From IMG/VR virus record IMGVR_UViG_3300009509_000054: a stretch of DNA of 38,904 nucleotides. One strand, given 5' to 3'. Shown one piece after another: positions 35,728 to 36,496 of the stretch. The stretch's first letter is position 1, and each line of letters starts with the position of its first letter. Source of the DNA: a virus. The translations under genes and the position numbers were made by a program. A model generated the notes under the pieces. The model saw only the letters and a list, made by a program, of their open reading frames with translations. It did no database searches and was not told the DNA's origin.

Positions 35728-35801
35728 GCTTATTTCTCCAATTCTCGGTTCTATTTATATTTGAATGTTAGCTGTTTTATTGATCAAATATAAAGAAACA
35801 T

Positions 35802-36401
35802 ATGGTACACATCCAATCAAAATATCCGATTGACGTCTCCAATTTTAAAATGCCAAACGAAATCGGATCGTATTGGTTTGGGTATTTGCTTGCGCGTGCA
35901 TATTTATATCAGAATCGCGCAAGGATTGTGATCAGAGCGCCGCTCTCCGATATTGGCCATCTTTACCAGCTATCTAGAGATCTATCGAGCATCAAATTGC
36001 CGCGTAGGAAAAACCACGGTTTTGGCTCCTTTGCACAGTTGATAATAGACAATAAAAACTTGTGCAACCTACTTCGCAAATATGGATTCCATAATGTGCC
36101 ATCAAAAGAACTAGACAGTAGGCATGTCGTCAGAGGCTTGCTCGATGGCGGTGGTTCAATATCAAGAAATGGACGTGGAAACCAATCGAAATATCTCAAA
36201 ATAACCTTTTATTCTAAATCAAAGAAATTGCTTGAATGGGTTTCAGGAAGGCTGGGTGAACGAAAAGTTGTTGGAGAATATCAAATCAGCTATGTCGGAA
36301 AGAAGGCTGTTGACGTTGCGAGGCGCATATATCTCAATCAATCTCGGTACCTGGAGAGGAAGCTATCTGCTCTTGCTAATGAAATCTTTAATAAACCCTG
36401 A
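35802..36401 (+). mobile_element. Free-standing LAGLIDADG-family homing endonuclease gene (199 aa, two degenerate LAGLIDADG motifs), reverse-oriented between structural genes
   Basis: The first motif is YWFGYLLARAY. The second, VRGLLDGGGSIS, is a classic LAGLIDGDGS-like motif. The size and two-motif monomer layout fit the family. An AT-rich upstream region lies at 35728-35801. Confidence 0.7.
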
Positions 36402-36496
36402 CAGCTTACACAGCGGGCAAACTACGAAAGCGTGTCTGTAGTTGTCTGGTAGCTCGTCTATTTTCCATTCATAGCCGCACTTGGGACACCTGAGAT

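What the first reader, a model, noticed from the sequence alone, without database searches (positions are those of the whole stretch)
35728..36496. Free-standing LAGLIDADG homing endonuclease inserted in reverse orientation between virion genes
A roughly 200-aa double-motif LAGLIDADG protein with its own AT-rich upstream region sits as a 770-bp plus-strand insert between two minus-strand structural genes. This is the hallmark of a mobile homing endonuclease gene. It marks this intergenic site as variable among relatives and could drive marker exclusion in co-infections.
Basis: partly seen in the sequence, partly recalled or inferred. Interest (0 to 1): 0.5.

Follow-up and report, generated by a model that had tools for sequence, protein, structure and literature searches.

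The report
Catalytically dead, resident LAGLIDADG endonuclease relic
The gene does descend from a LAGLIDADG homing endonuclease, but this copy has lost both cutting residues and its extra DNA-binding domain, and it has been kept intact by selection at one fixed spot in a group of uncultivated large viruses, so it looks like a retained DNA-binding protein and not an active mobile element.

Summary
The ORF is real: 35802..36401 (+), 199 aa. It is a single-chain, two-domain LAGLIDADG protein by Pfam LAGLIDADG_3, phrog_4645 and an AF2 model matching I-Tsp061I, WhiA, I-AniI and I-DmoI.

It is very unlikely to be an active homing endonuclease:
- Both metal-binding acidic residues are replaced (motif 1 Asp to R32, motif 2 Asp to G117). 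All 12 members of its clade show this, whereas 125 of about 150 family representatives keep D/D.
- The roughly 100-aa N-terminal HTH extension of the full-length D/D relatives is missing.
- Every relative whose neighbouring 950-aa protein is at least 74% identical carries the gene at the same place and orientation. All ORFs are intact, with pN 0.15-0.38 against saturated pS of about 0.8.

More distant relatives show empty sites, an adenosine-deaminase-like gene, or an intact D/D 321-aa version at the same spot. The whole subfamily (8 of 8 contexts checked) sits divergently upstream of this 950-aa gene. That gene also hosts LAGLIDADG inteins in some lineages. Dead forms arose in several clades.

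Best reading: a fixed, selected, non-cutting HEG derivative, probably a sequence-specific DNA binder. The R/G substitutions match those reported for T. maritima WhiA. Its function is untested.

The parts
35802..36401 (+). 199-aa single-chain LAGLIDADG-fold protein, basic (pI 10.2), lacking both catalytic acidic residues
   Evidence: ORF. Pfam LAGLIDADG_3 24.1 bits, aa 109-149. phrog_4645 6e-14. AF2 and Foldseek hits to LAGLIDADG enzymes and WhiA. pI.
35871..35909 (+). LAGLIDADG motif 1 (aa 24-36, YWFGYLLARAYLY). The codon at 35895-35897 (cgt) encodes R32 where active relatives have the metal-binding Asp.
   Evidence: Alignments with D/D relatives. Codon read from the sequence. R32 is present in all 10 clade sequences that cover motif 1.
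36126..36164 (+). LAGLIDADG motif 2 (aa 109-121, VVRGLLDGGGSIS). The codon at 36150-36152 (ggt) encodes G117 where active relatives have Asp.
   Evidence: and the sequence. In the clade this position is G, C, R or S, never D or E.
35728..35801 (.). 74-bp AT-rich (25.7% GC) divergent intergenic spacer between the 950-aa gene and the LAGLIDADG-like gene
35748..35764 (-). Conserved promoter-like element TCAAATATAAATAGAAC, about 20 nt upstream of the 950-aa gene's start. It belongs to that gene, not to the LAGLIDADG cassette.
   Evidence: Near-invariant in L001-L005 although synonymous sites are saturated. A related CAAAGATAAATAGAA lies at the same distance in the LAGLIDADG-less loci L006, L007, L008 and L010. 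It is unique in the window.
35754..35794 (.). 11-nt perfect inverted repeat TTTATATTTGA / TCAAATATAAA with a 19-nt spacer. The right arm ends 7 nt before the LAGLIDADG ATG.
   Evidence: GATCAAATATA...A also precedes the LAGLIDADG start in the very distant L014 (output). Function unknown.
36363..36518 (-). 51-aa zinc-ribbon gene (CxxC...CxxC), last gene of the upstream minus-strand operon. It converges on and overlaps the LAGLIDADG ORF.
   Evidence: Conserved at 39-53% identity with four invariant Cys in L002, L003, L015, L016 and L046. Absent in L001. Only sub-threshold Pfam zinc-ribbon hits, best E 4e-4, all below the gathering cut-offs.
32875..35727 (-). 950-aa conserved all-beta protein. 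It is the constant neighbour of this LAGLIDADG subfamily and a host of LAGLIDADG inteins in some relatives.
   Evidence: at least 391 homologs, contigs up to 397 kb. AF2 and Foldseek. Two inteins in L029.
36497..36829 (-). 110-aa proline-tract protein. In empty-site relatives its homolog ends 36-47 bp before the 950-aa gene, which marks the far edge of the inserted segment.

Best explanation
The ORF at 35802..36401 descends from a free-standing LAGLIDADG homing-endonuclease lineage that specialises in one site, immediately upstream of and divergent from a conserved 950-aa gene of a group of uncultivated large viruses.

Shown: in the window's clade the gene has lost the metal-binding Asp of both LAGLIDADG motifs (R32 and G117). 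It has also lost the N-terminal HTH extension. It is fixed at the site in all sampled clade members. Purifying selection has kept it as an intact, very basic two-domain LAGLIDADG protein.

Inferred: it no longer cuts DNA or homes. It persists because the LAGLIDADG saddle still binds a specific nucleic-acid sequence. The most plausible target lies in the shared control region or 5' end of the 950-aa gene. There it would act as a regulator or as an occupant of the old target site. Precedents for such roles are WhiA, I-TevI autorepression and the domesticated-endonuclease regulator of the PLE satellite.
For: Family and fold.

Loss of catalytic residues. YWFGYLLARAYLY and RGLLDGGGSIS align with YWFGFLLADGHLY and RGLWDGDGIVT of the L014 protein. 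In an HMM-anchored alignment of 159 representatives, 125 are D/D, while the window clade (P0001-P0012) has R at motif 1 and G, C, R or S at motif 2. The review PMC3384342 states that T. maritima WhiA carries Arg and Gly at these two positions and that WhiA proteins do not digest DNA.

Domain loss. phrog_4645 matches only profile positions 92-301 of 308. The D/D relatives are about 300 aa with HTH_58 or sigma-r4-like N-termini.

Fixation. The gene has the same place and orientation in W, L001, L002/20, L003/4/5/19, L015, L016, L017/21 and L018/46-48. These are all relatives whose 950-aa protein is 77-88% identical to the window's and whose upstream DNA is available.

Selection. All ORFs are intact at 188-210 aa. 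pN is 0.15-0.38 against pS of 0.71-0.97, which is saturated. There are 53 invariant columns, including alternating Arg on a beta strand (R41, R43, R45) and the SISRNGxGxQxKY segment. pI is 10.2.

Co-divergence with the neighbour: Mantel r = 0.45, p = 0.008.

Site specificity of the subfamily. P0011, P0013, P0016, P0019, P0024, P0034, L014 and L029 all lie divergently upstream of a 950-aa homolog. A more distant D/D member, P0042, does not.

Recurrent retention of dead forms. Dead sequences fall in at least four clades of an NJ tree. One is the 189-aa K/C protein of L029, whose 950-aa homolog is only about 46% identical to the window's.
Against: No biochemical data exist. Inactivity is inferred from residue identity and analogy.

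The AF2 model is of moderate confidence (pLDDT 74.8). I could not inspect residue geometry directly.

Synonymous sites are saturated, so omega cannot be estimated properly.

The trees are rough NJ trees without support values. The number of independent inactivations and the choice between vertical and horizontal history outside the clade are therefore uncertain.

Co-divergence with the neighbour is only moderate, and within-clade topology is unresolved.

No binding site has been identified. The best-conserved intergenic element also occurs in relatives without the gene, so it does not single out a target.

The profile used to rank relatives was built from dead sequences. That inflates the share of dead forms among the top hits.
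Confidence: 0.65

Rival explanations
1. Active free-standing homing endonuclease. The protein cuts HEG-less alleles near the 950-aa gene during co-infection and copies itself in, causing marker exclusion.
For: It has a LAGLIDADG fold and family membership. It is free-standing, in reverse orientation, and has lower GC (41% against 46-48%). The site is patchily occupied across the wider virus group, with true empty sites. D/D full-length relatives at the same site (L014, P0013, P0016) probably do home.
Against: Both metal-binding acidic residues are replaced by R and G in this copy and in its whole clade. The same R/G pair occurs in WhiA, which does not cut DNA (PMC3384342). The N-terminal HTH is lost. 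No empty site exists in any of the 8 lineages of its own clade. Divergence tracks that of the neighbour.
Confidence: 0.06
2. A functionless, decaying HEG relic, in the degeneration phase of the invasion-fixation-degeneration-loss cycle, that simply has not yet been deleted.
For: Catalytic residues and the accessory domain are lost. The gene evolves two to three times faster at non-synonymous sites than the 950-aa gene (pN 0.25-0.29 against 0.085-0.15). It is absent from many related lineages. The cyclical model is established for HEGs (for example PMC1762336, listed).
Against: Eight or more lineages that are saturated at synonymous sites all keep intact ORFs of similar length. pN is well below pS, and there are 53 invariant residues. 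Its rate is like that of neighbouring real genes (the 166-aa, 110-aa and zinc-ribbon genes). Dead forms persist as deep, diversified clades elsewhere too.
Confidence: 0.12
3. A target-site guard. The dead protein occupies the ancestral recognition sequence and shields the genome from cleavage and gene conversion by active D/D relatives or by intein-encoded LAGLIDADG enzymes from co-infecting viruses.
For: Active-looking D/D homologs of the same subfamily exist at the same site in related viruses. The 950-aa gene is repeatedly invaded by LAGLIDADG inteins. Basic residues (R or K) recurrently replace the motif-1 Asp, which should keep or strengthen DNA-backbone contact.
Against: This is purely inferential, and I know of no described precedent. 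A genome that already carries an insert at the site normally lacks the intact target anyway.
Confidence: 0.1
4. An RNA maturase for a group I intron nearby.
For: LAGLIDADG proteins that lose endonuclease activity often survive as maturases (PMC3384342).
Against: The gene is intergenic, and both flanking ORFs are uninterrupted. Rfam finds no intron in 35300-37000 even at E<=1. In relatives, the interruptions of the 950-aa gene are in-frame inteins, not introns.
Confidence: 0.02

Closest known systems
Single-chain (monomeric) LAGLIDADG homing endonucleases, e.g. I-Tsp061I (2dch), I-DmoI, I-AniI; Pfam LAGLIDADG_3; PHROG 4645
   Same: [quoted passage not shown]
   Different: The metal-binding Asp or Glu at the end of each motif is replaced by Arg and Gly. 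The roughly 100-aa HTH N-terminal extension of its nearest D/D relatives is absent. The gene is fixed and under purifying selection in its clade, not sporadic.
WhiA/DUF199 bacterial regulators (3hyi/3hyj), the textbook domesticated LAGLIDADG scaffold
   Same: WhiA is the second and third best structural match. It is a LAGLIDADG domain without catalytic residues. In T. maritima WhiA the two acidic positions are Arg and Gly (PMC3384342), the same pair as R32 and G117 here.
   Different: There is no WhiA N-terminal or C-terminal HTH domain and no Pfam or NCBIfam WhiA hit. The protein is viral, 199 aa, and clearly nested within a lineage of D/D free-standing HEGs. This is therefore an independent, much more recent inactivation.
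Homing endonucleases with regulatory or domesticated roles: I-TevI autorepressor; the PLE satellite's domesticated-endonuclease regulator of ICP1 gene expression; ICP1 Odn
   Same: These are HEG-derived proteins in phage systems that are kept for sequence-specific DNA binding or regulation and not for homing (PMC3384342; PMC10448857). Like them, this gene sits at a promoter-proximal position.
   Different: Those proteins are GIY-YIG/T5orf172 enzymes, not LAGLIDADG proteins. Their DNA-binding or regulatory function is demonstrated experimentally, whereas here it is inferred.
LAGLIDADG maturases that lost nuclease activity (e.g. yeast bI3, bI2)
   Same: Cleavage is lost, with retention under selection for a second nucleic-acid-binding function (PMC3384342).
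   Different: There is no intron context here.

Membership tests
LAGLIDADG homing endonuclease (single-chain) | [quoted passage not shown] | tested here: met
   Pfam LAGLIDADG_3 scores 24.1 against a cut-off of 22.5. The AF2 topology fits. Foldseek gives I-Tsp061I at E 1.3e-7 with probability 1.0, plus I-DmoI and I-AniI.
LAGLIDADG homing endonuclease (single-chain) | Acidic (Asp or Glu) metal-binding residue at the C-terminal end of each LAGLIDADG motif | tested here: not met
   R32 and G117 align with the Asp residues of D/D relatives. 125 of about 150 family representatives have D/D.
LAGLIDADG homing endonuclease (single-chain) | Site-specific double-strand cleavage of a 14-40 bp target | not testable with these tools
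   This needs a purified protein and a cleavage assay.
LAGLIDADG homing endonuclease (single-chain) | Mobility signature: sporadic presence or absence at a fixed site among close relatives | tested here: inconclusive
   Occupancy is sporadic across the wider group, with about 10 lineages with the gene and about 18 without it. Within its own clade the gene is present in all 8 lineages. Co-divergence gives Mantel r 0.45.
Free-standing HTH-LAGLIDADG subfamily next to the 950-aa gene (P0013, P0016 and L014 type, about 300 aa) | Position divergently upstream of the 950-aa gene | tested here: met
Free-standing HTH-LAGLIDADG subfamily next to the 950-aa gene (P0013, P0016 and L014 type, about 300 aa) | N-terminal extension of about 100 aa with HTH domains | tested here: not met
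   The window protein starts at the equivalent of residue 105 of the L014 protein. It matches phrog_4645 profile positions 92-301 only. HTH_58 is found in P0013 and P0034.
WhiA/DUF199 | LAGLIDADG domain lacking the acidic catalytic residues | tested here: met
   The substitutions are R and G, as reported for T. maritima WhiA. 3hyi and 3hyj rank second and third in Foldseek.
WhiA/DUF199 | C-terminal HTH_WhiA domain and WhiA N-terminal domain; sequence membership | tested here: not met
   There are no WhiA Pfam or NCBIfam hits. The protein ends right after the LAGLIDADG core.
LAGLIDADG intron maturase | Encoded within a group I (or II) intron | tested here: not met
   The ORF is intergenic with intact flanking ORFs. 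There is no intron model in Rfam at E<=1.

The most novel reading that the evidence does not exclude
A lineage of free-standing LAGLIDADG homing endonucleases that targets one gene boundary in a group of uncultivated large viruses has been converted several times independently into non-cutting proteins. The virus keeps these proteins as sequence-specific DNA binders. They would act either as a regulator of the adjacent 950-aa gene or as a guard that blocks cleavage by still-active relatives and by intein enzymes. This would be a viral, recent and repeated counterpart of the single ancient WhiA domestication, down to the same Arg/Gly replacement.
Probability: 0.3. Interest if true: 0.65.

Novelty: new variant of a known kind. 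Interest (0 to 1): 0.42.

Why it matters
Homing endonuclease genes are usually modelled as invade, degenerate, get lost. Here the degenerate state appears to be stably retained. One site-specific subfamily shows active-looking (D/D, HTH-bearing) and dead (R/K plus G/C/R..., often shortened) forms side by side at the same locus in related viruses, and the dead forms are under purifying selection.

If binding is confirmed, this gives a natural series for studying how a LAGLIDADG nuclease becomes a DNA-binding factor. It would be a viral parallel to WhiA.

There is also a practical lesson for annotation. A LAGLIDADG Pfam hit in a viral genome should not be read as 'mobile element' or 'marker exclusion' without checking the two acidic positions. 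For this particular window, the claim of an active HEG should be dropped.

Tried and rejected
- Public phage genomes: no DNA (blastn) or protein (tblastn) match for the region or the ORF. 'Related phages lacking the insert' therefore had to come from metagenomes.
- IMG/VR scan with the LAGLIDADG alignment: pattern hits only, none confirmed.
- PDB sequence search with the single protein: only marginal hits (I-Tsp061I at E 0.27). The fold search was needed.
- Rfam at a permissive threshold over 35300-37000: no intron or other credible RNA.
- NCBIfam and PADLOC: nothing for the LAGLIDADG protein or its neighbours.
- Sigma-70 promoter and terminator scan: nothing above shuffle expectation.
- The idea that TATAAATA or TCAAATATAAATAG is a genome-wide late-promoter consensus: rejected for this window. 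There are 3 TATAAATA hits against 1.7 expected, and the long motif is unique.
- The idea that the conserved intergenic element is the LAGLIDADG protein's own site: not supported, because LAGLIDADG-less relatives keep it.
- Identity of the 950-aa neighbour: Pfam, PHROG, a PDB profile search, AF2 and Foldseek gave no significant assignment. The hints are a weak DUF1080-like lectin jelly-roll and a GLMSxDDKAKLD fibre-like motif.
- dN/dS: Jukes-Cantor dS is undefined for most pairs because of saturation, so only pN against pS is reported.

Full report
**What is there**

The window is a whole 38,904-bp metagenomic contig (one search shows that the longest contig holding the protein is 38,904 bp). 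Its genes are almost all on the minus strand. The flagged region holds a 199-aa ORF at 35802..36401 on the plus strand. To its left, 74 bp away and divergent, is a 950-aa minus-strand gene (32875..35727).

To its right lies the end of a minus-strand operon of 528-aa, 150-aa and 110-aa genes. That gene overlaps the 110-aa gene by 22 nt and converges on the LAGLIDADG ORF with a 39-nt overlap. It is a real gene. It recurs at 39-53% identity with four invariant cysteines in five related loci, and it is missing in L001.

The spacer 35728..35801 is 25.7% GC. The ORF is 41.3% GC, the window 46% and the 950-aa gene 47.8%.

**Is it a LAGLIDADG protein?**

Yes.
- Pfam LAGLIDADG_3 passes its gathering cut-off (24.1 against 22.5 bits, aa 109-149).
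- PHROG 4645 'endonuclease' matches aa 6-192 at 6e-14, but only to profile positions 92-301 of 308.
- Foldseek against the PDB returns only LAGLIDADG proteins at the top: I-Tsp061I at 1.3e-7, then WhiA (3hyi, 3hyj), I-AniI, intein endonucleases, I-OnuI variants and I-DmoI.
- Sequence-only search of the PDB was marginal.
- Rfam finds no group I intron. Both flanking ORFs are uninterrupted, so the gene is free-standing.

**The catalytic residues are gone**

In LAGLIDADG enzymes the acidic residue at the end of each motif binds the catalytic metals. This is established knowledge and is restated in PMC3384342.

Aligned with a 321-aa relative from locus L014, the window protein reads YWFGYLLA-R-AYLY against YWFGFLLA-D-GHLY. 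In the second motif it reads RGLLDG-G-GSIS against RGLWDG-D-GIVT. The codons are cgt at 35895-35897 and ggt at 36150-36152.

A profile search of 1.84 billion representative proteins found 1,530 relatives. In an HMM-anchored alignment of the best 159, 125 have D/D. The window's own clade (P0001-P0012) has R in every sequence that covers the first position, and G, C, R or S at the second.

The review PMC3384342 records that T. maritima WhiA has Arg and Gly at exactly these two positions and that WhiA proteins do not digest DNA.

The window protein also lacks the roughly 100-aa N-terminal extension of its D/D relatives. That extension carries HTH_58 or sigma-region-4-like helix-turn-helix domains. 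The protein remains very basic (pI 10.2, 35 K+R against 14 D+E).

**Distribution among relatives**

No cultured-phage record matches the region at the DNA or protein level, so relatives came from metagenomes.

Ten homologs at 55-63% identity exist. In every contig long enough to show context, the gene sits in the same place and orientation next to the 950-aa gene.

I then scanned IMG/VR and JGI metagenomes with the 950-aa protein, which does not presuppose the LAGLIDADG gene. Every relative whose 950-aa protein is 77-88% identical and whose upstream DNA is present carries the gene. These are W, L001, L002/20, L003/4/5/19, L015, L016, L017/21 and L018/46-48, which makes eight lineages with no empty site.

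Relatives at 46-67% identity differ:
- In L011/L042, L037/38, L040 and L043 the homolog of the 110-aa gene ends 36-47 bp before the 950-aa gene. These are true empty sites.
- L006-8, L010, L022, L031 and L044 have an adenosine-deaminase-like gene there.
- Others have unrelated genes.
- L014/L024 carry the intact 321-aa D/D gene at the same spot.
- L029/L030 carry a 189-aa dead version (K/C) at the same spot.

A family-level HMM scan of all loci confirms about 10 lineages with the gene and about 18 without it. On a rough NJ tree of the 950-aa protein, the window clade is monophyletic and sister to the deaminase-bearing clade.

**A site-specific subfamily, with repeated inactivation**

I looked up the genomic context of other representatives:
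- P0011 (R/R, 188 aa), P0013 (D/D, 305 aa), P0016 (D/D, 304 aa), P0019 (R/L, 212 aa), P0024 (K/K, 206 aa) and P0034 (R/G, 285 aa) all lie divergently upstream of a homolog of the 950-aa gene.
- A more distant D/D member, P0042, lies in an unrelated small-phage context.

The roughly 35 nearest representatives therefore form a subfamily tied to this one gene boundary, as expected for a homing lineage with a fixed target. Among P0011-P0046, 19 are D/D and about 15 have lost both acidic residues. This share is inflated because the query profile was built from dead sequences. On an NJ tree the dead forms fall in at least four separate groups. The motif-1 Asp is recurrently replaced by Arg or Lys.

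The 950-aa gene is also a magnet for LAGLIDADG inteins. In L029 it is a 1,748-aa ORF with two inteins inserted in its most conserved N-terminal segment (Intein_splicing, Hom_end_hint and LAGLIDADG_3). The gene next to P0013 and the proteins P0202 and P0271 carry inteins too.

**Selection and inheritance**

All eight clade lineages keep intact ORFs of 188-210 aa. Proportional non-synonymous differences are 0.15-0.38. Synonymous differences are 0.71-0.97, which is saturated, so only the qualitative statement of strong purifying selection is justified.

There are 53 invariant columns. They include R41 and R45 (with R43 nearly invariant) on one strand and S119-I-S-R-N-G124, G126, Q128, Y131 and L132 (with K130 nearly invariant) in the second domain.

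The gene evolves faster than the 950-aa gene but about as fast as the neighbouring 166-aa, 110-aa and zinc-ribbon genes. Pairwise identities of the two genes correlate (Mantel r 0.45, p 0.008). This is compatible with mainly vertical descent within the clade, but the within-clade topology is not resolved.

**The spacer**

The strongest intergenic conservation is TCAAATATAAATAGAAC (35748-35764, minus strand), about 20 nt before the 950-aa gene's start. A close variant sits at the same distance in the LAGLIDADG-less deaminase clade. It therefore belongs to the 950-aa gene, probably as a promoter, and not to the insert. It is unique in the window.

One arm of an 11-nt perfect inverted repeat lies in this element. 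The other arm ends 7 nt before the LAGLIDADG start. A similar GATCAAATATA...A precedes the start in distant L014. I could not assign a function to the repeat.

Compared with the empty sites, the inserted segment lies between the stop of the 110-aa gene and this element.

**Interpretation**

Shown:
- The protein has LAGLIDADG ancestry.
- It belongs to a site-specific free-standing subfamily.
- Both acidic residues and the HTH domain are lost.
- The gene is fixed in its clade and under purifying selection.
- The site is variable in the wider group.

Inferred:
- The protein does not cleave DNA, so it does not home or cause marker exclusion.
- It persists because it binds nucleic acid specifically.

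A role at the shared control region or 5' end of the 950-aa gene is the most economical guess. It could act as a regulator or as an occupant of the old target. Precedents are WhiA, I-TevI autorepression (PMC3384342) and the domesticated endonucleases of the ICP1/PLE system (PMC10448857).

I rate an unselected decaying relic at 0.12, a still-active enzyme at 0.06 and a maturase at 0.02.

**The 'virion genes' label**

This is not established. The flanking proteins have no significant family hit. The 950-aa protein belongs to a family of at least 391 members on contigs of up to 397 kb. It models as an all-beta multidomain protein whose highly conserved residues 44-175 are poorly predicted. It has no significant fold match, only weak lectin/glucanase jelly-roll hits, a sub-threshold DUF1080 hit and a GLMSxDDKAKLD motif that weakly matches a PDB chain named FtbO. 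A 796-aa window protein has a weak PHROG tail-fibre hit. Some homologs carry dockerin domains. A surface or fibre role is plausible but unproven.

**Verdict**

It is a new variant of a known kind (a domesticated or inactivated LAGLIDADG protein). It is of moderate interest, mainly for the repeated, locus-bound inactivation and the WhiA-like R/G substitutions.

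Noticed in passing
window 6242..8734 (+): This is the only other long plus-strand gene. It encodes an 830-aa protein with Pfam MVP_shoulder (3.7e-29) and Vault_3 repeat (2.6e-08) hits, so it is a major-vault-protein-like protein on a viral-looking contig.
   Followed up: no
window 36363..36518 (-): A 51-aa four-Cys zinc-ribbon gene overlaps both the 110-aa gene (22 nt, probably translationally coupled) and the 3' end of the LAGLIDADG ORF (39 nt, convergent). It is conserved in five related loci and absent in L001.
   Followed up: partly
L029 2405..7651 (+); also L028, L030, L049, P0202, P0271: Homologs of the 950-aa protein carry one or two in-frame inteins with LAGLIDADG endonuclease domains. 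The inteins are inserted in the most conserved N-terminal segment, after DDGGWM and within PLNCxCxxCAQIFW. The L029 protein also has a dockerin domain.
   Followed up: partly
L006, L007, L008, L010, L022, L031, L044, upstream of the 950-aa homolog: An adenosine-deaminase-like gene of about 330 aa (HQHxDGS motif) occupies the position, also divergent, that the LAGLIDADG gene occupies in the window clade. This boundary is a general hot spot for accessory genes.
   Followed up: partly
window 35754-35764 / 35784-35794: A perfect 11-nt inverted repeat, TTTATATTTGA / TCAAATATAAA, has arms in the two divergent upstream regions. The left arm lies inside the conserved promoter-like element of the 950-aa gene.
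   Followed up: partly
window 36497..36829 (-), about 36740-36780: The 110-aa protein has a run of 12 prolines (the GGN-rich stretch on the + strand). It also has a C-terminal motif EPDPxTFRxxYYYNTRxNxLY, which recurs at the C-terminus of much longer (329-466 aa) proteins in L007, L008 and L010.
   Followed up: no
window 27398..28855 (-), 16144..17922 (-), 3017..4132 (-), 1419..2114 (-), 24334..25041 (-): Auxiliary genes are present: a CCA-adding/poly(A) polymerase with an HD domain, a 592-aa protein with three methyltransferase domains, a DegT-type aminotransferase, a hexapeptide acyltransferase and a GT2 glycosyltransferase. Relatives add dCMP deaminase, an NAD-dependent sugar epimerase/dehydratase-family gene (Pfam Epimerase and GDP_Man_Dehyd hits), UDP-glucose dehydrogenase and APS kinase.
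   Followed up: no
P0263, P0275 (homologs of the 950-aa protein): Two NCBI records name their source as archaeal MAGs (Nitrososphaerales and Candidatus Thorarchaeota). Related contigs reach 137-397 kb in IMG/VR and other sources. The host and nature of this virus group are unknown.
   Followed up: no
L055 about 6148..6984 (-): A second LAGLIDADG-family ORF (family HMM 2.9e-37) lies about 2 kb from the D/D gene that neighbours the 950-aa homolog.
   Followed up: no
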